A program made the position numbers and the translations under genes. This document shows positions 9,091 through 55,804 of a stretch of 64,000 nucleotides of DNA, piece after piece. How positions within the stretch are numbered: the first letter of the stretch is position 1; the number at the start of each line of letters is the position of its first letter. The DNA is from an uncultured Planctomycetales bacterium (GTDB taxonomy: Bacteria > Planctomycetota > MHYJ01 > JACPRB01), in contig CAZGKV010000002.1 in assembly GCA_964526305.1 (NCBI GenBank), positions 9,599 to 73,598 of the forward strand. Reading direction: 5' to 3'. The notes beneath the pieces were generated by a model. That model was not told where the DNA came from. It saw nothing but the letters and a program-made list of their open reading frames with translations, and ran no database searches.

Positions 9091-10692
9091 ATGAAACAGC
9101 TCCGCTTCTTCGCGCTCCTCTGGCTCGCTCCGCTCCTCGCCGCCCGCCAAGAACGCGACCCCGTCGTCGAGACGGTGGTCCGGGAGGGACGCGAGAACCC
9201 CAAGGTGATGGAGCACCTGGATCACCTCGTGAACAAGATCGGACCGCGCCTGACCGGTTCCGACAGTCTCACGAAGGCCTGCGAATGGACGCGGGACCAA
9301 TTCAAGAGTTTCGGGATCGAGAACGCCCGGCTCGAGGAGTGGGGGACGTTTCCCGTCGCGTTCAACCGGGGTCCGTGGTCCGGGGAGATGACGGCGCCGG
9401 AGAAGAAGAAGCTGACGTGCGGCACGATGGCCTGGACTCCCGGGACCGACGGGCCGGTCGAAGGCCCGGCCATGCTGGCTCCCGCAGGGTCGGAAGACCT
9501 CAAGGCGGAGTACAAGGGAGCGTGGATCGTGTCCCCGCCCCGACTTTCCGATGCGGTAACCAAGGCGCTGGACGAGGCCGGGGTCGCGGGCTACGTGCGG
9601 GGTTCTCGGAACGAGCTCCTGGTCACCGATGGGAATCATCGAATTCGTTGGGAGAATCTGCCGAAGCGGGTGAACGTGCAGGTGGTCTCGTCCGAGTTCA
9701 AAGATTTGGTCGCGCGACTGGAGAAGGGAGAGTCGGTTCGGCTCCGGTTCGACATCAAGAACGAGTTCAAGCAGGGACCGGTGAAACTGTTCAACGTCAT
9801 CGCCGACATCCCCGGCACGGAGAAGCCGGAGGAGATGGTCATCGTCGGCGGACACATCGATTCCTGGGACGGCGCGACCGGGACGAACGACAACGGCACC
9901 GGCGTGTCGACGACGCTTGAGGCCGCTCGTCTGCTCATGAAGGCGGGAGCGAAGCCGAAAAGGACGATTCGCTTCATGCTTTGGAGCGGGGAGGAGCAGG
10001 GACTCTTGGGATCGGCCGGCTGGATCCAGAAGCACCGGGACGATCTCAAGAACATCTCTTGTGTTCTCGTCCACGACGGCGGCACCAATTACGTGTCCGG
10101 TATCGTCGCGACGAACAAGATGGTGCCGATGTTCGAGAAGGCATTCGCCCCCGCACGGGAGCTGGACGGCGCGATGAAGTTCAAGATCCGAGAGGTCCAG
10201 AGACTTCCCTACGGGATCGGGAGCGATCACGACTCGTTCCTCGGCGCGGGCGTCCCGGGATTCTTCTGGGCGCAGTCGGGCCGGTCGAACTATGTCCACG
10301 TCCATCACACGCAGCACGACACCTACGACTCCGCGATTCCCGAGTACCAGAAGCACTCGGCGGTGGTGATCGCGTTGGGGGCCTGGGGACTCGCCAATGC
10401 GGAGGGCCTGGTGCCTCGCGACGGCCTTCCGACCGGGGGAGGCGGCGGGCACGGCCGAATGCTCGGCGTGAATCTCGACGAGGACGGCGTCACGGTTACC
10501 GGTCTGATGGAGGGGTACCCCGCGGAGAAAGCGGGCATCAAGGTCGGGGACAAGATCGTGAAGGTCGGCGACCGGACAGTCGCCAGCCGTGAGGATCTCA
10601 TCAACGCGATTCGCAAAGCGCCGAAGAAAACGAAGGTCGTCGTTCTGCGAGGGGGGAAGGAGATCTCGGTGGCCGTGGAGTTTACCGAGTAG
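9091..10692 (+). CDS. M28 family Zn aminopeptidase with PA and C-terminal PDZ domain, secreted
   Basis: Signal peptide MKQLRFFALLWLAPLLAA. M28 motifs (VGGHIDSWDGATGTNDNGTGV, WSGEEQGLLGS, GSDHDSF). C-terminal PDZ (GVNLDEDGVTVTGLMEGYPAEKAGIKVGDKIVKVGD). Confidence 0.85.
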   Translation: MKQLRFFALLWLAPLLAARQERDPVVETVVREGRENPKVMEHLDHLVNKIGPRLTGSDSLTKACEWTRDQFKSFGIENARLEEWGTFPVAFNRGPWSGEMTAPEKKKLTCGTMAWTPGTDGPVEGPAMLAPAGSEDLKAEYKGAWIVSPPRLSDAVTKALDEAGVAGYVRGSRNELLVTDGNHRIRWENLPKRVNVQVVSSEFKDLVARLEKGESVRLRFDIKNEFKQGPVKLFNVIADIPGTEKPEEMVIVGGHIDSWDGATGTNDNGTGVSTTLEAARLLMKAGAKPKRTIRFMLWSGEEQGLLGSAGWIQKHRDDLKNISCVLVHDGGTNYVSGIVATNKMVPMFEKAFAPARELDGAMKFKIREVQRLPYGIGSDHDSFLGAGVPGFFWAQSGRSNYVHVHHTQHDTYDSAIPEYQKHSAVVIALGAWGLANAEGLVPRDGLPTGGGGGHGRMLGVNLDEDGVTVTGLMEGYPAEKAGIKVGDKIVKVGDRTVASREDLINAIRKAPKKTKVVVLRGGKEISVAVEFTE

Positions 10693-11524
10693 GGAGGAGA
10701 CGCTCGGCGTTGGCGTGGCCAATCTTCGCCGCCGTCTCCGCCTTGAGCTGTCCGAGGACCGAGCGGTAGTACTTGACCACGTCGGGTAGGAGGGGGACGC
10801 GGTCCGCATTCTGCCCGCCGACGTCGCTGCCGAAAAGGAAGCGGTCCGGGAATTCCTCGAAGAGTTCCTTCCACTCGGGCTTGAGCGTCCCTCCGTTCTC
10901 CGTGATCGATTGCTCCGACATCGGATGGCCCCGCTTGAAATAGGGGTTGCGGCAGGACAAGTCCGCGTAGAGGTTTCCGTGCTTCCTCATCAGGGTGCGG
11001 AGGGTCGGCGGCGAGGCATCGCCCGCGTGCGCCCAAATCACCTTGGCGTCCTTGTTGTGACCGAGCGCTCGATCCAATTCCGCCGAATACGACTTCTCGA
11101 CGTGGAGGTTCACGGGCGCTCCGTACTTGGCCGCGACGTCCAAGATCTTGAGCAGGATGGGGTGGTCGGCCGGGTAGTTCACCGCGGCGCGCTTGTGGCG
11201 GAGCGGGATTTCGCCCACGCCCCGCGCCGCACCCGACTTGAGTTGCTCTTCCACATGCGCGACGGAGGTCTCGTCCAGGATCATCTTCTTGGTGTCGGGT
11301 TCGAATCGAAGGGGCGTGAATCGCACGGCGAACTTCGGATCCAACTTGAGATTCGGCTGACCGGCCATCAGACAGACGCGAGTGATTCCCGCCTCTTTCG
11401 CCTGATCCAGGAGCTTGGGATCGAAGGGACGGGCCGTATGGAGATGGACGTCATAGAGCTCGCCCTCGTAGGGATTCTGGACCATCCAGCCGGCCACGAG
11501 GAGGAGTGCGGAGATCATTCCCAT
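10682..11524 (-). CDS. amidohydrolase-2 (TIM-barrel metal-dependent hydrolase) family protein
   Basis: N-terminal TM/signal segment, then YDVHLHT metal-binding motif and later H/D residues typical of PF04909-like amidohydrolases. Confidence 0.7.
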   Translation of the reverse strand: MGMISALLLVAGWMVQNPYEGELYDVHLHTARPFDPKLLDQAKEAGITRVCLMAGQPNLKLDPKFAVRFTPLRFEPDTKKMILDETSVAHVEEQLKSGAARGVGEIPLRHKRAAVNYPADHPILLKILDVAAKYGAPVNLHVEKSYSAELDRALGHNKDAKVIWAHAGDASPPTLRTLMRKHGNLYADLSCRNPYFKRGHPMSEQSITENGGTLKPEWKELFEEFPDRFLFGSDVGGQNADRVPLLPDVVKYYRSVLGQLKAETAAKIGHANAERLLPTR

Positions 11525-12263
11525 CTATGATACCTCTCGATTCAAACGGGACACAGGTAGGAAAAAGAAGAACCACGGGACGGTTTGGGGAAACTTGGAG
11601 TATACGCCTCACGTCGCTTCCGTTCCATCCGGTCGGTTTTCGAAGCTGGGGAGGAAATCTCATGGGGCGGGGGGATCTTGGTATTACGATGCAGACAAGG
11701 CCCGCGGCTCCCGCCGGGCCGGAAGCGTCGAGGACAAGAGAAACAGCACGTTTGGCATTCGTGTGGCGCTTCAGGCCTCCCTGGGAGTGAGAGTACCCCA
11801 TCCCTCTTTTCCCGCTGCTTCGACGGGGGGCGCTCGAGGTGCATTTTATATGTGTTACGGAGTGCGCCCTCCCTCGTCCTACTGTGGGATCAAAGGAGGA
11901 CGCAACATGGTACGACGAACAAGCGTAAGGTCCGGACTGATTTCCGCCGATCGGTCAAGGATCCAAGTGGAGCGCCCGAGGGGGAGTATTGCCTAACTCG
12001 GGGTGGTTCTTGGTACCCGGACGCAGATAAGACCCGTCTCCTTCGGAGGGGCTCCGAAGAATCCTGACGCGGCGCGACCCCAACCGATTCTCCTGCGGAA
12101 GACCCATCGAGCGAAAACTCTAAAGAGGTGATTGTGTGGGCTGCAGGAGGAGGATATGTCTTTCCTTCCACACCTTGCGCCGTTCGAGGTCGATTTTCTG
12201 AGTGTTTCGGAAGGAGCGTGCGGAAGCTTGATGCCCGAGGCTCGATGCCGCTACTCTCTTCCC

Positions 12264-13532
12264 ATGCCTTCCGTCGTCCTCCTGAACGTCGTCGGCCTCA
12301 CGCCTCGCCTCGTTCCGCACGCGCCCTCCATCGCGTCGGTGGGCCGAATCATGCCGATGCGAGGACCCCTGCCGGCCGTGACCAGCACGGCCCAGGCGAC
12401 GATGCTCACGGGGACGCCGCCATCGCGACATGGCATCGTCGGGAACGGATGGCTCTTCCGAGACACCATGGAGGTCCGATTCTGGCCGCAGTCGAACCGA
12501 CTGATCCAGACGGAGACTCTGTACGCTCCTCGACGATTCACCTGCGCGAAGATGTTTTGGTGGTTCAACCAGGGGGCACCGGTGGATTGGTTCGCGACCC
12601 CGAAGCCGCACTACGGCGCGGACGGCTCGAAGGTGTTCGCGATCGTGGACGGCACCGGGTGCGATCTGGAACGCGCGCTGGGGCCGTTTCCCTTCCCGGC
12701 CTTCTGGGGACCCGCCGCCGGACTCGCCTCCAGTGACTGGATCGCCCGCGCCTCCGCGATCGTGATCGAGAAGAATCGCCCTCAACTGACGCTCGTGTAT
12801 CTGCCGCATCTCGATTACGACTATCAGCGGTGCGGCCCGGGCGATCTGGAACGCGTCCGAGAAGTCGATGCCTGCGCGAAGCTCGTGATCGACGCCGCCC
12901 GATCCATCGGCGCGAAGGTCGTGGCGGTCTCGGAGTACGGATTGGTTCCGGTGAAGCGCGCGGCGTACTTGAACCGCGAGCTTCGGCGTGCCGGCTGGCT
13001 TGCGGTTCGGGATGGCCCGTTCGGCGAGCAGCTCGACACGTTTGCGTCGAAAGCCTTCGCTGTCGTCGATCACCAGGCGGCGCATCTCTACGTTCGCGAT
13101 CTGCCGCTCGAGGCGGTCTGCGACCGCCTGGCGCCGCTGGCGGATCGGATCGTCGCTCCCGGCGAGGTCGGGCTCGACCACCCGCGCTCGGGCGATCTCA
13201 TCGCCCTAGCCCGACCGGACGAGTGGTTCGCCTATCCGTATTGGCTCGAGGATTCGCGCGCTCCGGACTTCGCGCGGACGGTCGACATCCACCGAAAGCC
13301 GGGCTACGACCCCTGCGAGCTCTTCCTGACCTCAAAGTTTCGCGCGGCGCGGAAGCTGGCCCGGAAGAAGCTTGGATTCCGCTATCTCATGGACGTGATT
13401 CCGCTCGACGCCGGGATCGTGCGAGGCAGCCACGGCCTGATGACGGATCCCGCCGACGGTGCGGTGTGCGTCGCGGAAACGCCGGTCCCGGACATGCTGG
13501 ACGTCCGGAAGTTGGTGTTGGGGTTGCTGTGA
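12264..13532 (+). CDS. alkaline-phosphatase superfamily protein (type I phosphodiesterase/nucleotide pyrophosphatase-like)
   Basis: VVLLNVVGLTP...SVGRIMPMRGPLPAVTSTAQATMLTGTPPSRHGIVGN (metal-ligand Thr/Asp region) and later HLDYDYQRCGP, VVAVSEYGL: typical AP/NPP core motifs. Start at ATG 12264 chosen over the track's upstream ATGs (12132/12231), which add a non-conserved leader. Confidence 0.8.
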   Translation: MPSVVLLNVVGLTPRLVPHAPSIASVGRIMPMRGPLPAVTSTAQATMLTGTPPSRHGIVGNGWLFRDTMEVRFWPQSNRLIQTETLYAPRRFTCAKMFWWFNQGAPVDWFATPKPHYGADGSKVFAIVDGTGCDLERALGPFPFPAFWGPAAGLASSDWIARASAIVIEKNRPQLTLVYLPHLDYDYQRCGPGDLERVREVDACAKLVIDAARSIGAKVVAVSEYGLVPVKRAAYLNRELRRAGWLAVRDGPFGEQLDTFASKAFAVVDHQAAHLYVRDLPLEAVCDRLAPLADRIVAPGEVGLDHPRSGDLIALARPDEWFAYPYWLEDSRAPDFARTVDIHRKPGYDPCELFLTSKFRAARKLARKKLGFRYLMDVIPLDAGIVRGSHGLMTDPADGAVCVAETPVPDMLDVRKLVLGLL

Positions 13533-13608
13533 ACCATGCTCGGCGCGGTAGAGATGTAGCGATTTGCGGCTTCGAAATCCACCGCAAAGGCGCGAGGGCG
13601 CAGAGAGA

Positions 13609-13995
13609 TCATCGGTTGTTCACGAGTCTGCGAATCCCCTGTCGCAGCACCGGTACGTTGAAGTTGAGGATCAAGCCCAGAGGATTCCCCGTCATCCTCA
13701 AGTCGGTCAGCAATGGAGCCTCATGCACCGGTACGACTCTCTCGATGGCTTTCACCTCGACTATCACGGTTTCTTCCACGAGCACGTCCACACGATATCC
13801 GCAAGCGAGTCTCACTCCCTTGTACTCGACCGGAATCTCCAGTTGACGTCGGAAACGCAGATCCCTGAGACTGAGTTCGCGGCACAAACATTCCTCGTAC
13901 GCGGACTCCAGCAGACCCGGCCCAAGCGCGCGGTGCACCTCGATCGCGGCACCGATCACCTCATTGCTGATCCTGTTGATCTCCGACACCTCCAT
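13609..13995 (-). CDS. GxxExxY family protein (PD-(D/E)XK-like)
   Basis: [31 protein letters not shown] matches the GxxExxY signature. 128 aa, typical size. Confidence 0.85.
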
Positions 13996-14115
13996 CCATC
14001 CTCATCGTGCCTTCAGCCATCCTCTTGTCGACGCCGAAAACGACATGGAAATCTCGGCGTCTCAGCGTTTTGAAAAAGCGCAACTTGTCCCCGCAGCGAG
14101 TATACTTGGGCCGAT

Positions 14116-14916
14116 ATGGCGTTTCTGCTCCTCATCATCCTTGCGCCTCAGGACTACGAGAAGAAGGCCCTCGAGAGAATCAACACCCATCGACGCCTCG
14201 CGGGTCTGGATCCGGTCACCCTGGATTCCGCGCTCTCGAAGGGGTGTTCGGCGCACGCGGCATACCTGGTGAGGAACGAGGGGCATCCCTCCACCGACGG
14301 CCTCGGCGCGCACGACGAGAATCCAAAGCTTCCCGGCTACTCTCCGGAAGGAAAGAAGGCGGCCGGCGCCTCCGACATCGGTTATCAGGATCCGGTGACC
14401 TCGGTCGATGCCTGGATGTCCGGCCTCTTCCATCGAGTTCCGATTTTGGATCCGCTACTCAAGAAGGTGGGTGTCGGCTATGCGAAGGGGGGAAAGTGGG
14501 GTTGGGTCTCGGTCTTGGACGTGGTCAGCGGTCGAGGGCCCGGGAAGCCGAGAGACCCCGTCCTCTATCCGGCGCCCAAGCAGAAGGACGTTCCCTTGAC
14601 CTTGGGAAACGAACTTCCGTCGCCGGTGCCGGACGATTCCGACAAGCGCGCCGGGTATCCGGTCACCATCACGTTCAGAGAGGAAGTGATGGTGAAGGGC
14701 GTGATCGCCACGATGCAGGACGAGACGGGGAAGGGATTGGATGTGTGGCTCTCCACTCCCGAGCACCCGGCAGACTCGCGCTATCAACGAAACACGATCT
14801 GTCTCATCGCGAAGGATCCCTTGCGCGCCCGGACGACCTATACGATTACCGCGCAGGGAAACGTCGCCGGCAAGCGATGGACGAAGACATGGACCTTTAC
14901 CACGGGCGGGCGGTAG
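14116..14916 (+). CDS. CAP (SCP/PR-1-like, YkwD-type) domain protein
   Basis: ALERINTHRRLAGLDPVTLDSALSKGCSAHAAYL...DAWMSGLFHRVPILDPLLKKVGVGYA: CAP domain hallmark residues. N-terminal hydrophobic segment. Confidence 0.75.
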   Translation: MAFLLLIILAPQDYEKKALERINTHRRLAGLDPVTLDSALSKGCSAHAAYLVRNEGHPSTDGLGAHDENPKLPGYSPEGKKAAGASDIGYQDPVTSVDAWMSGLFHRVPILDPLLKKVGVGYAKGGKWGWVSVLDVVSGRGPGKPRDPVLYPAPKQKDVPLTLGNELPSPVPDDSDKRAGYPVTITFREEVMVKGVIATMQDETGKGLDVWLSTPEHPADSRYQRNTICLIAKDPLRARTTYTITAQGNVAGKRWTKTWTFTTGGR

Positions 14917-52700: not shown

Positions 52701-54196
52701 GGGTTCTTCTCCTTGCGCTTGACGATGAGGACGTTCCGGCCCTGGGGCGTCAGATACTTCACGGCCGCTTCGCGCACCTGACTCGCCGTCACCGCCATGA
52801 CGCGCTTGAGGTAGTCGAAGGCTTCGTGCCAGTCGGCGTTGATTTCGGCGTATCCGAGCGCGTCGCCGATTCCTTTGTTCGACTGAAGCTGGCGGGCCGT
52901 GGTCGCCAGCGATTGGTTCTTCACTTTCTGCAGTTCACGCTCGGTCACTCCGTCCTTTTTCAGCCCCTCGACGATCTCCTCGATTCCCCTCTCCAGGTCG
53001 GAGAAGGAGACTCCCTCCTTGGGGCGCGCGTCGACATCCGCCATTCCGCCGTACCGCAGCGCCCAATACGAGGATCCCGCGGCGAGAGCGAGGTTTTTCT
53101 CCTCGACGAGAATGCGATGGAGGCGGCCGGAGGGACCGTCGAGGATCATCATCGCGAGGTCCAGCGCGGCGGTATCGCTGTGGGCGGCGCCGGGCGCGTG
53201 CCATCGAACGGTCAAGGAGGGCTGCGATTTCGCTTCGGCATGCATGCGCCGTTCCGCGACCTGCTCGGATTCTCGGGTTACGATCGCCGGCGGTTCGTCC
53301 TTGTTTCGCGGGATGCGCCCGAAATAACGCGTGGCGAGATCCCGGATCTTGGCGGGCTCCACGTCTCCGACGAAGATCGCGGTACACCGATGAGGGGAGT
53401 AGTAGATCCGGAAGTACTCCAGCGCATCGGCCAGAGTGTACATCTCGATATCGCTCATCCATCCGATGACGGGCCAACTGTATGGGTGGGACTGCCAAAA
53501 CATGGCCCGAAAGGCTTCGTGGATGAGTCCCGTGGGCGTCGAGTCGTACCGCATCCGCCGTTCTTCCTTGACGACGTCCCGCTCCGGATAGAACTCGCGG
53601 AAGACGGGTCGGAGGAAGCGGTCCGATTCCAACCAGAAAAAGAGTTCGACCTTGTTCGAAGGAAGCTCGATGAAGTAGCGGGTCCAATCGTAGTAGGTCG
53701 AGGCGTTGAGGCCGGTCCCACCGGCTCCCATGTAGAGTTTCGAGATGTGCTCGCTCACCGTGATCTTCTTCTGCTCGGCGATCAACTCTTCGTATCGCGC
53801 CGTGTGTTTCCGGAGAGCCTGGCTGAGCCTCGTCTGCTCCTCCATGTTCGGCTTCGATCCCCGGCGTTCGAATTCCCGGTGGAGAAGCTGGATCTCACGG
53901 ACTCGACCCATGACCTGGTCCACCTCGGCGTTGATCTCCGCATCGCGCTTCGCGTCTGTGGTGCCGATGGTGGCCGTTCCCTTGAACATCATGTGTTCGA
54001 AGAAATGCGAGAGTCCCGTGATGCCGGGACGTTCGTCGACCGATCCGACTTTCCAGTACAGGGCGCAGAAAACCCGGGGGGTGTCCCGCCGAGGAACCGC
54101 CAGAATCTTCATCCCGTTCTCGAGGCGAAACTCCTCGACAGGGAGGCGGAGCTCGGTGTCTTGCGCCGCGACGAGAACGCACAGCAGGGCGATCAT
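52697..54196 (-). CDS. M16 family Zn peptidase (catalytic subunit)
   Basis: Signal peptide MIALLCVLVAAQ. Inverted zinc motif GLSHFFEHMMFKGT (HxxEH). Downstream E residues. Confidence 0.85.
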   Translation of the reverse strand: MIALLCVLVAAQDTELRLPVEEFRLENGMKILAVPRRDTPRVFCALYWKVGSVDERPGITGLSHFFEHMMFKGTATIGTTDAKRDAEINAEVDQVMGRVREIQLLHREFERRGSKPNMEEQTRLSQALRKHTARYEELIAEQKKITVSEHISKLYMGAGGTGLNASTYYDWTRYFIELPSNKVELFFWLESDRFLRPVFREFYPERDVVKEERRMRYDSTPTGLIHEAFRAMFWQSHPYSWPVIGWMSDIEMYTLADALEYFRIYYSPHRCTAIFVGDVEPAKIRDLATRYFGRIPRNKDEPPAIVTRESEQVAERRMHAEAKSQPSLTVRWHAPGAAHSDTAALDLAMMILDGPSGRLHRILVEEKNLALAAGSSYWALRYGGMADVDARPKEGVSFSDLERGIEEIVEGLKKDGVTERELQKVKNQSLATTARQLQSNKGIGDALGYAEINADWHEAFDYLKRVMAVTASQVREAAVKYLTPQGRNVLIVKRKEKNP

Positions 54197-54300
54197 GGGA
54201 TCCCTCCTACGAATCGGCCCATTCTAGGGCGGATCGGAGGGCGGTCAATGAAATCCAAGTGCGTTTGACTTCCGCATGCCCGACCGAGTACCCTTCCCCC

Positions 54301-55710
54301 ATGAACAGATTCGCCTCCGCTCTTGCCGTTTCGCTCGTCGTGATGTGCAAACCGGCCCCGGTCCCCTCGGTGACGCCTCACGAGCCCGGGGTCCAGGACG
54401 AGAAGGACTTGCCGAACGTCGCCGGGATCGACTTCTCGAAATTCCCCAAGTGGCCGGTACTTCCCCGAAAGGGGAGGTCGGTCGTCGTGAAGCCCGGCTC
54501 CGGGCCTTCCCTTGCCGAAGCGGTCGAGAAAGCGGAAGGCGGCGATACGATCTTGCTGACGGAAGGAAAACACACGATCCCCGAGGAGATTCTGGTCGCC
54601 AAGTCGGGAATCTCGATTCGATCCGAGGCCGCGAAGGCGACGTTGGCTCCGGCCTCCGCGGAAGTGCGCCAGTGCCTCGTGTTGACCGGCGACGATCTCT
54701 GGATCGACGGGATCACGTTCGACGGTTTCGGAGGGATGCCGATTCAAGTGGGGAGACGGGACGGCTCGACGCAGAAGAATGTGGTCCTCTCGCGCGTCGT
54801 CGTCCGGGGAGGGGAGGACGGCATTCGGACGGCGCCCATCGGAGGAAAGGCCGCGAAGCCTCAGATCAGCGGGCTCCTGGTGCGCGACGTTCGTCTGGAA
54901 GGCCAGCGCTTGGCCGGGTTCAACATCGGCGAGGGTCCGGCGACGGACGTGCGACTGGAGAACGTGACGATCGAGATGAAGGGAGCCGATCCGGGGAATT
55001 CGGGAGCCGACGCCATCGCGGCGGAGAACGGCGACAACATTCTGGTCAACCGATGCACCGTCAGCGGCGCCTCCGGCGATGGGATCGACTTCAAGGCGAC
55101 TCGCGTGTGCGTCTACAACACGGTGGTCCACGATCTCGGACGCAACGGCGTGAAGTTCTGGCGCGGCGGCGATCTCGTGAATTCGCTGGTGTACAACACC
55201 GGCGCGGATGCGGCCCTCGTGTTCGAGGGAGAAGGGACGTATCGGATTCTCCATACCATCGTCGCCTTCCACGTTTCGTACTCGCTCACCTGCGGATACG
55301 GGAACAAGGAGCCCATCAAGCTGACGATCGCGAACTCGATCTTCTACAACAACGCGAGCGCCGTGTGGGTCTCGGCCACGACGGAGCTCGCCGTCCTTCA
55401 TTCCCTCTTCACGGGCTCCAAGAGCGGGTATGAACTCGCCGTCCAACAGAAGAACGGCGAAGAGCTGTATGTCACTCGAGAGGAGGGATGGGGTCCCCTG
55501 GCCAAGGATCCGAAGATTCGCGGGAATCTCCCGCTGGGGACCGATCCGAAGTTTCTGGATCCGGCCAAGGGGGATTTCGGATTCGCCTCGGGGAGTCCCG
55601 CCCTCGATGCGGGGACGGTCGAGGTGAGACCCTATCCGCCGGCGGATCGGCGGGGTTCTCGCCGAAACCTCGGGCGGGCTCCCGATCTTGGACCGGACGA
55701 GCGGAAATAA
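54301..55710 (+). CDS. secreted right-handed parallel beta-helix repeat protein (pectin-lyase fold)
   Basis: Start at ATG 54301 (MNRFASALAVSLVVMC) within track ORF 54259. Repeated N/G-rich rungs (VVRGGEDGIRTAP, VSGASGDGIDFKA, NTVVHDLGRNGVKFW, NSIFYNNASAVWV). Confidence 0.7.
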   Translation: MNRFASALAVSLVVMCKPAPVPSVTPHEPGVQDEKDLPNVAGIDFSKFPKWPVLPRKGRSVVVKPGSGPSLAEAVEKAEGGDTILLTEGKHTIPEEILVAKSGISIRSEAAKATLAPASAEVRQCLVLTGDDLWIDGITFDGFGGMPIQVGRRDGSTQKNVVLSRVVVRGGEDGIRTAPIGGKAAKPQISGLLVRDVRLEGQRLAGFNIGEGPATDVRLENVTIEMKGADPGNSGADAIAAENGDNILVNRCTVSGASGDGIDFKATRVCVYNTVVHDLGRNGVKFWRGGDLVNSLVYNTGADAALVFEGEGTYRILHTIVAFHVSYSLTCGYGNKEPIKLTIANSIFYNNASAVWVSATTELAVLHSLFTGSKSGYELAVQQKNGEELYVTREEGWGPLAKDPKIRGNLPLGTDPKFLDPAKGDFGFASGSPALDAGTVEVRPYPPADRRGSRRNLGRAPDLGPDERK

Positions 55711-55804
55711 TCCGCGACAATTCCGGTTGTCGGGCGACGTTGAATCCATAGGGCGACTGGAGGAGGACTTCCGACATTCGACATCTTTTATTGGAGGACT
55801 GGCG

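What the first reader, a model, noticed from the sequence alone, without database searches (positions are those of the whole stretch)
11525..12263. 740-bp low-GC divergent intergenic region with a duplicated element whose differences are mostly third-codon-position, plus a perfect-SD 29-codon mini-ORF
Two copies of a ~36-nt element (11689-11727, GGGGGGATCTTGGTATTACGATGCAGACAAGGCCCGCGG; 12005-12042, GGTGGTTCTTGGTACCCGGACGCAGATAAGACCCGTCT) lie about 320 bp apart. Read in one frame each they encode GGSWYYDADKAR and GGSWYPDADKTR. 7 of the 11 nucleotide differences are synonymous third-position changes, a signature of peptide-level constraint. But the two copies sit in different reading frames of long, junk-looking ORFs and neither has a nearby canonical start. 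Between them, AAAGGAGGA-N6-ATG (ATG at 11907) opens MVRRTSVRSGLISADRSRIQVERPRGSIA*. A stable hairpin CTCCTTCGGAGGGGCTCCGAAG follows copy 2. Possibilities: a decayed repeat-containing gene, a small-protein/peptide locus, or a structured RNA with tandem modules.
Basis: seen in the sequence. Interest (0 to 1): 0.55.

Follow-up and report, generated by a model that had tools for sequence, protein, structure and literature searches.

The report
Decayed FGE-sulfatase gene fragments between genes
The duplicated ~36-nt element is real, but it is most likely the fossil of two copies of the last ~50 codons of an FGE-sulfatase-type gene that has since been truncated and frameshifted, so it is ordinary pseudogene debris and not a new peptide or RNA locus.

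Summary
The repeat exists, at 11669-11704 and 12001-12036 (75% identical, 332 nt apart). It lies in a 739-bp divergent spacer between an amidohydrolase gene (-) and a type I phosphodiesterase gene (+) of an uncultured Planctomycetota bacterium.

Seven of the 10 differences in the 12-codon core fall at third codon positions (P about 0.02). In those same frames the two copies together reconstruct the C-terminal signature of the FGE-sulfatase domain:
- Copy 2 keeps DPSG-x3-G-x-Y-x3-RGGSW.
- Copy 1 keeps GGSW-x7-R-x3-R-x12-GIRVA.

A composite of the two gives PF03781 as the only Pfam hit (20-20.7 bits, E about 5e-4, profile positions 204-254 of 255), and shuffled controls give nothing. Only this tail survives. 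The copies are in different frames, copy 2 carries a stop and a 4-nt indel, and neither has a nearby start codon.

The repeat is the best-kept island of a larger diverged tandem duplication of about 335-350 bp. Rfam finds no RNA family, folding is no better than shuffled sequence, and 80+ related loci show no conservation. The 29-codon mini-ORF has poor codon usage and no homologues. Verdict: gene debris, low interest.

The parts
11525..12263 (.). Divergent spacer between the amidohydrolase start and the phosphodiesterase start. It is lineage-specific.
   Evidence: Pfam identifies the flanking genes. Homologues align from the Met at 12264. The spacer is 100% identical in independent metagenome contigs L001 and L086. 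It is absent from 80+ related loci.
11670..11768 (+). Relic A (frame 2): GGSWYYDADKA-R-GSR-R-AGSVEDKRNSTF-GIRVA. This is the distal half of an FGE-sulfatase C-terminal module, with intact spacing.
   Evidence: It scores 12.7 bits on a custom FGE C-terminal HMM, against 5.8 or less for the 1146 other six-frame peptides. In a shuffle test of its downstream part, 1 of 2000 shuffles reached the observed score. It aligns ungapped to the C-terminus of EgtB 4x8b. Codon score is +10.8 over 40 codons.
11954..12067 (+). Relic B (frame 1): VKDPSGAPEGEYCLTRGGSWYPDADKTRLLRRGSEES followed by a stop. This is the proximal half of the same module. It has a stop at 12065-12067 and a 4-nt indel before the position where GFR is expected.
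   Evidence: It scores 24.9 bits on the custom HMM and 15.5 bits on an HMM of full FGE domains, at positions 206-244 of 260. The 4-nt gap is seen in the alignment. Codon score is poor, -16.
11669..11704 (+). Repeat core, copy 1 (D1a).
12001..12036 (+). Repeat core, copy 2 (D1b).
11831..11861 (+). Second conserved island of the duplicated unit, copy A (D2a). It contains a weak hairpin followed by a T-run.
   Evidence: It is 77% identical to 12181-12211 and colinear with D1. It was flagged as terminator-like.
12181..12211 (+). Second conserved island, copy B (D2b). It lies in the possible N-terminal extension of the phosphodiesterase ORF.
11648..11890 (+). Duplicated unit A (approximate limits).
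   Evidence: The chained alignment with unit B scores 104.5, against 62.8 +/- 7.7 in dinucleotide shuffles (0 of 300 reach it). Without the D1 core the z-score is 3.5-4.9.
11981..12290 (+). Duplicated unit B (approximate limits). It may reach the first codons of the phosphodiesterase: 12266-12284 resembles 11866-11884, which is weak evidence.
12041..12059 (+). 8-bp GC-rich hairpin after copy 2, with no T-run. Copy 1 is followed by a different GC hairpin, 11700-11721.
   Evidence: Seen in the fold. It was not flagged as a terminator.
11907..11996 (+). 29-codon mini-ORF behind AAAGGAGGA. It is in the same frame as relic A and is probably not a gene.
   Evidence: Codon scores are -11 and -4. It has no homologues. 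The SD-ATG pattern is common by chance.
10682..11524 (-). Flanking gene: Amidohydro_2 / TatD-like hydrolase, 280 aa.
12264..13532 (+). Flanking gene: type I phosphodiesterase / nucleotide pyrophosphatase, 422 aa. An alternative in-frame start at 12156 sits behind GGAGGAGGA.

Best explanation
The spacer is non-functional debris of a protein-coding gene. An ancestral + strand gene carried two copies of the last ~50 residues of an FGE-sulfatase-type (SUMF1 / EgtB / PvdO-like) domain. The copies arose either as two internal repeat modules or through a tandem duplication of about 335-350 bp covering the gene's 3' end and the start region of the neighbouring phosphodiesterase.

While at least one copy was still translated, purifying selection kept the GGSWY.DADK.R core, so changes accumulated mainly at third codon positions. 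Later the gene lost its body and its start, at the rearrangement that placed the amidohydrolase next to it. It also acquired indels (the spacing of 332 nt is 3n+2, and there is a 4-nt indel after copy 2) and a stop codon.

What remains does nothing as a protein.

Shown: the repeat, the larger duplication, the frame-specific FGE-like signature, the disruption of the frames, and the absence of conservation elsewhere.

Inferred: the order of events, and that no part has been reused as a regulatory element.
For: 1. The repeat is real and unique in the window.
2. It belongs to a larger colinear duplication. The chained alignment has z = 5.4 (0 of 300 shuffles) and is still z 3.5-4.9 without the core.
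3. Seven of 10 differences are at third positions, P = 0.021 over any phase.
4. An HMM of seven FGE C-terminal modules was scanned over all 1148 six-frame peptides of the window. It ranks the two copies first: 24.9 and 12.7 bits, against 5.8 or less for the rest.
5. The part of copy 1 that played no role in choosing those modules adds about 8.5 bits. Only 1 of 2000 shuffles reaches the observed score.
6. A composite peptide (copy 2 upstream part plus copy 1 downstream part) has PF03781 FGE-sulfatase as its only Pfam hit: 20-20.7 bits, E 3.6e-4 to 5.9e-4, profile positions 204-254 of 255. Nine flank-shuffled controls and the reciprocal chimera give no such hit.
7. A profile of the two copies aligns ungapped over 45 residues with the C-terminus of EgtB 4x8b: 17.6 bits, independent E 0.027.
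8. Proteins built from tandem FGE C-terminal modules exist. P0134 has four Pfam stretches matching profile positions about 200-254.
9. Signs of decay: different frames, a stop at 12065, a 4-nt indel, no nearby start, poor codon scores, no match to any upstream part of the FGE domain, and no protein relatives of the 133-aa ORF.
Against: - Neither natural peptide on its own gives a Pfam hit at E <= 10. The composite stays below Pfam's gathering score (20.7 against 23.3 bits) and was designed after I had seen the resemblance.
- The FGE proteins used for the custom HMM were found through their similarity to copy 2. Their library E-values are inflated by internal repeats: single stretches score only 8-19 bits.
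- Short GGSW-type motifs also give weak matches to unrelated families, namely VCBS/cadherin-like repeats and alpha-lytic protease.
- NCBIfam finds nothing.
- No intact orthologue of the presumed parent gene was found next to either flanking gene in relatives.
- A core kept at 75% identity amid near-random flanks could also reflect present-day constraint of another kind.
Confidence: 0.68

Rival explanations
1. The two units are functional RNA elements. They would be either a duplicated cis-regulatory leader of the phosphodiesterase gene or two tandem paralogous small RNAs. Each would have a conserved imperfect hairpin (the D1 core, a 10-bp interrupted stem with a 15-nt loop GUA....G.YGCAGA) and a weak terminator-like hairpin with a U-run (D2) about 160-180 nt downstream.
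For: RNAalifold draws the same hairpin on both copies. Four of the changes within it keep pairing: one C-G to G-C swap and three G-C/G-U or U-G/U-A changes. Both D2 islands were flagged as terminator-like on the + strand. The pattern of conserved islands with divergent sequence between them resembles tandem small-RNA paralogues (my own knowledge, not tested here). The region lies upstream of a gene on the same strand.
Against: Only two sequences are available, so covariation carries little weight. Minimum-free-energy folds do not prefer this hairpin, and z-scores are +0.4, +0.85, -0.5 and -1.4. No Rfam family reaches threshold in the window. The model finds no further copy in the window or in 560 kb of related loci. 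No relative has a leader upstream of this gene. This reading explains neither the third-position bias nor the FGE-like reading frames.
Confidence: 0.1
2. The locus encodes live small proteins or peptides. Candidates are the GGSWY.DADK.R peptides themselves, the 29-codon ORF at 11907, and the 42-codon ORFs at 11662 and 12003.
For: The third-position bias suggests peptide-level constraint. Three GGAGG-spacer-ATG sites lie on the + strand of the spacer, at 11662, 11907 and 12156, where about 0.2 would be expected from their density in the window. One metagenome annotation called a gene over the frame of copy 2.
Against: The two motif copies are in different frames, have no start within about 25 codons (copy 1) or about 140 codons (copy 2), and copy 2 ends in a stop. 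Codon scores are negative for the mini-ORF and for the frame of copy 2. The 133-aa ORF that contains both copy 1 and the mini-ORF has no relative in 5.8 billion proteins. Another annotation called no gene in the spacer. About two thirds of SD-ATG sites in the window open short, evidently spurious ORFs. The motif pattern was not found in GTDB species genomes, JGI metagenomes or viral contigs.
Confidence: 0.05
3. The resemblance to FGE-sulfatase is coincidental. The repeat is simply the least-decayed part of a neutral tandem duplication of non-coding DNA or of some other, unidentified coding sequence, and the periodicity is chance.
For: The duplication is supported independently of any reading frame. 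P = 0.02 for the periodicity is modest and was assessed after the fact. The D2 island also shows 5 of 7 differences in one phase, yet that frame contains a stop in copy B (read directly from the sequences). Weak matches to several unrelated families show how little information the motif carries.
Against: Pfam reports only FGE-sulfatase for the composite and nothing for ten controls. The shuffle test on the independent part of copy 1 gives 1 of 2000. The spacing GGSW-x7-R-x3-R-x12-G[FI]R is exact and ungapped against P0136 and EgtB.
Confidence: 0.15
4. Copy 2 is a guanidine-III (ykkC-III) riboswitch.
For: A local Rfam match of GUACCCGGACGCAGAUAAGAC to model positions 39-59 of 67.
Against: The score is 12.7 bits against a gathering score of 36, with E = 9.6. 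The 5' half of the model is unmatched. Copy 1 lacks the CCCGG element. The downstream gene is a phosphodiesterase, not a guanidine transporter or carboxylase.
Confidence: 0.01

Closest known systems
FGE-sulfatase domain (Pfam PF03781; SUMF1 / EgtB / PvdO-like), C-terminal segment
   Same: The same ungapped signature: DP.G...G.Y.V.RGGSW-x7-R-x3-R-x12-G[FI]R[LV]. It is the only Pfam family matched by the composite peptide, at profile positions 204-254 of 255. The match to the C-terminus of EgtB 4x8b is ungapped.
   Different: Only the last ~50 of ~255 positions are present. The score is below the gathering threshold. The two halves of the signature survive in different copies. The frames are broken, so this is a relic and not a member.
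Proteins made of tandem FGE C-terminal modules (for example P0134: 234 aa, four modules, period about 57 aa)
   Same: Repetition of the RGGSW...GFR tail alone, without the rest of the domain.
   Different: The period here is about 111 codons and not 57. There are only two modules, they are not in one frame, and no intact ORF exists.
Gene remnants in bacterial intergenic regions produced by rearrangement or partial duplication
   Same: No start codon, frameshifts and stops present, lineage-specific, located at a break in gene order.
   Different: Nothing unusual. The only notable point is that the fossil substitution pattern is still visible.
Guanidine-III riboswitch (Rfam RF01763)
   Same: 21 nt of copy 2 resemble the conserved 3' half.
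   Different: The match fails the Rfam threshold by 23 bits. It lacks the 5' half and the pseudoknot partner, it is absent from copy 1, and the gene context is wrong.

Membership tests
FGE-sulfatase domain (PF03781) | Score at or above Pfam's gathering threshold (23.3 bits) | tested here: not met
   The natural peptides give no hit at E <= 10. The composite of the two copies scores 20-20.7 bits, E 3.6e-4 to 5.9e-4.
FGE-sulfatase domain (PF03781) | Full domain of about 255 positions, including the N-terminal and central parts | tested here: not met
   Only positions about 204-256 match in any of the six frames of 11400-12400.
FGE-sulfatase domain (PF03781) | C-terminal signature RGGSW-x7-R-x3-R-x12-GFR with a preceding P.G...G.Y.V | tested here: met
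   Copy 1 has GGSW-x7-R-x3-R-x12-GIRVA. Copy 2 has DPSGAPEGEYCLTRGGSW-x7-R-x3-R. The signature is met only when the two copies are combined.
FGE-sulfatase domain (PF03781) | Intact ORF with a start codon and no frameshift or premature stop | tested here: not met
   The frames differ (2 and 1), there is a stop at 12065-12067 and a 4-nt indel, and only distant TTG starts exist.
Guanidine-III riboswitch (RF01763) | Covariance-model score at or above the gathering score (36 bits) over the whole model | tested here: not met
   12.7 bits, E 9.6, model positions 39-59 only. Nothing in the window reaches a gathering score.
Structured cis-regulatory RNA or small RNA (any, including undescribed) | Structure more stable than shuffled sequence, and covariation across relatives | tested here: inconclusive
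   Folding z-scores run from +0.85 to -1.4. The hairpin shared by the two copies has one double and three single pair-preserving changes. No further homologues exist to test it.
Small protein or leader peptide gene (29-codon ORF at 11907) | Codon usage like that of the host's genes, and conservation of the peptide | tested here: not met
   Codon scores are -11 and -4. No relatives were found. The SD-ATG pattern is frequent by chance.
Small protein or leader peptide gene (29-codon ORF at 11907) | Evidence of translation | not testable with these tools
   This needs ribosome profiling or proteomics of this uncultured organism.

The most novel reading that the evidence does not exclude
The two units are not dead. 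After the parent gene decayed, the conserved core with its flanking hairpin and the D2 hairpin with its U-run were retained as a duplicated regulatory RNA. This would be a leader or attenuator of the phosphodiesterase gene, or a pair of tandem small RNAs, born from former coding sequence. That would explain why these islands stay 75-77% identical while the rest of the unit has drifted to near-random similarity.
Probability: 0.07. Interest if true: 0.5.

Novelty: already known. Interest (0 to 1): 0.12.

Why it matters
It matters little biologically. It is one more gene remnant at a break in gene order in an under-sampled Planctomycetota lineage.

Its value is methodological, in three ways:
- A third-position substitution bias in a short intergenic repeat was a correct clue to coding ancestry, even though no ORF survives.
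- Combining the complementary surviving halves of two decayed copies recovered a family assignment that neither copy gives alone.
- Library-wide E-values against internally repetitive proteins (1.6e-8 to 9e-4 here) can be produced by single stretches of only 7-19 bits, so they must be checked stretch by stretch.

Tried and rejected
- **Rfam.** I scanned the region with permissive settings and the whole window at gathering scores. Only two noise-level hits appeared, guanidine-III and GHRLOS. Rejected.
- **Motif pattern in public collections.** GGNGGNTCNTGGTAYNNNGAYGCNGAYAAR gave 0 matches in viral, GTDB-species and JGI metagenome contigs. A D2 pattern gave 0 in metagenomes. The metagenome nulls are weak, because an identical JGI contig (L086) exists and neither scan found it.
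- **Orthologous spacers.**
  - 80 genome loci with the phosphodiesterase carry no adjacent amidohydrolase, and blastn and tblastx of the spacer find nothing.
  - In the nearest relatives of both flanking genes (71-78% identity), each gene sits directly behind another gene, so no comparable spacer exists.
- **Covariance model.** A model of the core hairpin finds no further copies in the window or in 560 kb of loci.
- **Protein searches.**
  - Pfam on all long ORFs of the spacer, both strands: nothing meaningful.
  - NCBIfam: nothing.
  - Word-index search with the 133-aa ORF: nothing.
- **Exhaustive search with the 160-aa ORF.** It returned four 'significant' hits from three unrelated families. 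I rejected these as direct evidence after the per-stretch scores proved tiny.
- **Other checks.**
  - Further FGE modules at half the period, or upstream FGE remains: none.
  - FGE-type genes in the related loci: none.
  - Sigma-70-like promoters in the spacer: none.
  - Protein-level similarity of the D2/D4 frames: E 0.13, not significant.

Full report
**Setting**

The finding lies between two divergently transcribed genes. An Amidohydro_2 / TatD-like hydrolase occupies 10682-11524 on the - strand. A type I phosphodiesterase / nucleotide pyrophosphatase lies on the + strand. One metagenome annotation instead used the in-frame ATG at 12156.

The best relatives of the phosphodiesterase are Planctomycetota (Pirellulales-like) genomes, at no more than 78% protein identity. 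The same DNA, base for base, occurs in independent metagenome assemblies (L001 and L086), so the sequence is not an assembly artefact. GC content is 57.9% in the spacer, against 62.8% and 66.6% in the flanking genes.

**Checking the observation**

The two copies are real but were mislocated. They lie at 11669-11704 and 12001-12036, are 75% identical without gaps, and are 332 nt apart.
- A degenerate pattern covering both matches only these two sites in 64 kb, against none in shuffles.
- The local alignment scores about four standard deviations above shuffles.
- The peptide readings GGSWYYDADKAR (from 11670) and GGSWYPDADKTR (from 12002) are correct and lie in different frames.
- The 36 nt contain 10 differences. 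Seven are at third codon positions, and six of those are synonymous single changes. The other differences are a fully replaced codon and one Ala/Thr change.
- The chance of seven or more differences in any one phase is 0.021. It is 0.0076 if the replaced codon is set aside.
- The hairpin after copy 2 and the SD-ATG mini-ORF are present.

**The repeat is part of a larger duplication**

A second island, 11831-11861 against 12181-12211 (77% identical), is colinear with the first. A weaker third island, 11866-11884 against 12266-12284, overlaps the first codons of the phosphodiesterase.

A chained alignment of 11640-11990 against 11975-12330 scores 104.5. Dinucleotide shuffles give 62.8 +/- 7.7 (0 of 300 reach it), and random segments of the window give 67 +/- 8.6. 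Without the core the signal remains, at z 3.5-4.9.

**RNA readings**

No Rfam family reaches its gathering score anywhere in the window. A permissive scan gives only a 12.7-bit local match of copy 2 to the 3' half of the guanidine-III model (gathering score 36, E 9.6) and an equally weak lncRNA hit.

Folding energies of the elements and of whole units are no better than shuffles, with z-scores from +0.85 to -1.4. RNAalifold can draw a shared interrupted 10-bp hairpin over the core in which four changes keep pairing, but that rests on two sequences only. A covariance model of that hairpin finds no further copy in the window or in 560 kb of related loci.

**Comparative data**

None of 80 genome loci carrying the phosphodiesterase has the amidohydrolase next to it. 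Neither blastn nor tblastx of the spacer finds anything in them. In the closest relatives of either flanking gene, that gene sits directly behind another gene on the same strand. The spacer is therefore lineage-specific and marks a break in gene order.

Pattern scans for the motif found nothing in viral, GTDB-species or JGI metagenome contigs. The metagenome nulls are weak, because an identical JGI contig exists that neither scan returned.

**Coding readings**

Codon-usage scores trained on the window's genes are negative or near zero across the spacer. The exception is +10.8 over the 40 codons that start at copy 1 in its peptide frame. The frame of copy 2 scores -16 and the mini-ORF scores -11 and -4. 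The 133-aa ORF holding copy 1 and the mini-ORF has no relative among 5.8 billion proteins.

GGAGG-spacer-ATG occurs 27 times in the window, and about two thirds of these sites open short, evidently spurious ORFs. A 'perfect SD' is therefore weak evidence here.

An exhaustive HMMER search with the 160-aa ORF holding copy 2 returned four hits with E from 1.6e-8 to 9e-4. Inspection showed that all four targets are internally repetitive proteins, from three unrelated families. The single matched stretches score only 7-19 bits, so these E-values are not evidence of homology by themselves.

**The lead that held up**

Two of those four hits are FGE-sulfatase proteins. Read in their peptide frames, the two copies carry complementary halves of that domain's C-terminal signature:
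- Copy 2 reads KDPSGAPEGEYCLTRGGSW, against the family pattern P.G...G.Y.V.RGGSW.
- Copy 1 reads GGSW-YYDADKA-R-GSR-R-AGSVEDKRNSTF-GIRVA, which has exactly the spacing of GGSW-x7-R-x3-R-x12-GFRLV in P0136.

Tests of this lead:
1. An HMM of seven such modules, scanned without filters over all 1148 stop-to-stop peptides of the window, ranks copy 2 (24.9 bits) and copy 1 (12.7 bits) first. Every other peptide scores 5.8 bits or less.
2. The modules had been found through copy 2, so I tested the part of copy 1 that lies downstream of the shared core. Shuffling it lowers the score by about 8.5 bits, and 1 of 2000 shuffles reaches the observed value.
3. The curated Pfam library gives nothing for either natural peptide. 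For a composite of copy 2's upstream half and copy 1's downstream half it reports a single family, PF03781 FGE-sulfatase, at 20-20.7 bits, E 3.6e-4 to 5.9e-4, profile positions 204-254 of 255.
4. Nine controls with shuffled flanks around a fixed RGGSW, and the reciprocal chimera, give no such hit.
5. A profile of the two copies aligns ungapped over 45 residues with the C-terminus of the FGE-fold enzyme EgtB (4x8b): 17.6 bits, independent E 0.027.
6. No other part of an FGE domain is detectable in any frame, and there is no third module.

**Interpretation**

The most economical account is that the spacer is the remnant of a + strand gene containing two copies of the FGE-type C-terminal module. 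Proteins made only of such tandem modules exist (P0134). Alternatively, the copies arose when a segment spanning the 3' end of an FGE-domain gene and the start region of the phosphodiesterase was tandemly duplicated. The colinear D2 and D4 islands favour this second version, but weakly.

Selection on the translated module left the third-position pattern. Later events removed the function: loss of the gene body at the rearrangement with the amidohydrolase, a spacing of 3n+2, a 4-nt indel, and a stop at 12065.

The family assignment is a resemblance and not a membership. The Pfam threshold is not reached, only a fifth of the domain is present, and the composite was designed after the resemblance had been seen. 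I put this reading at about 0.68. The rivals are:
- neutral duplication with a coincidental motif, about 0.15;
- reuse as an RNA element, about 0.10;
- live small ORFs, about 0.05;
- a guanidine-III riboswitch, about 0.01.

**Verdict**

The object is ordinary gene debris. Interest is low.

Noticed in passing
window 12156-12266: The start of the phosphodiesterase is ambiguous. One annotation uses ATG 12156, behind GGAGGAGGA, giving 458 aa. Another uses ATG 12264, giving 422 aa. A third in-frame ATG lies at 12231. Most homologues align from 12264, but codon scores in this frame are already positive from about 12120.
   Followed up: partly
window 11650-12158, + strand: Three GGAGG-spacer-ATG sites (ATG at 11662, 11907 and 12156) lie within the 739-bp spacer, about 245-250 nt apart. 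About 0.2 would be expected from their density on that strand of the window. The ORFs at 11662 and 12003 (the latter a GTG start with no GGAGG site) are both 42 codons long and both begin at the repeat cores.
   Followed up: partly
L086 1-2632 (JGI 3300009444), equal to window 11563-14194: This JGI contig is identical to the window and contains both repeat copies. Even so, the metagenome contigs pattern scans returned no match, so that collection does not hold every JGI sample and nulls from it are weak.
   Followed up: yes
L086 2-505, equal to window 11564-12067, + strand: A public annotation called a 167-residue partial gene over the junk-looking frame that contains copy 2. This is a likely false gene call that has entered protein databases.
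   Followed up: partly
proteins P0133-P0136 (hits): Whole-library E-values of 1.6e-8 to 9e-4 were produced entirely by summing 3-7 near-identical weak stretches (7-19 bits each) in internally repetitive targets from three unrelated families.
   Followed up: yes
L087 (ERZ27245685), L088, L089: A second organism, with a 71%-identical amidohydrolase in a different gene neighbourhood (BNR-like, then alpha/beta hydrolase, then amidohydrolase on one strand), co-occurs in the same samples as the window's organism.
   Followed up: no
window 13609-13995 (-) and 14116-14916 (+): Downstream of the phosphodiesterase lie a PDDEXK_3 family gene and a CAP (cysteine-rich secretory protein family) domain protein with a bacterial Ig-like domain. 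The nearest relatives of the phosphodiesterase have different neighbours, so this stretch looks rearranged as a whole.
   Followed up: no
window 54193-55749 (-): This long ORF has GC1 0.78 and GC3 0.63, the reverse of the window's real genes (GC3 0.71-0.83). It is probably a shadow of the overlapping + strand ORF 54259-55710 and not a gene.
   Followed up: no
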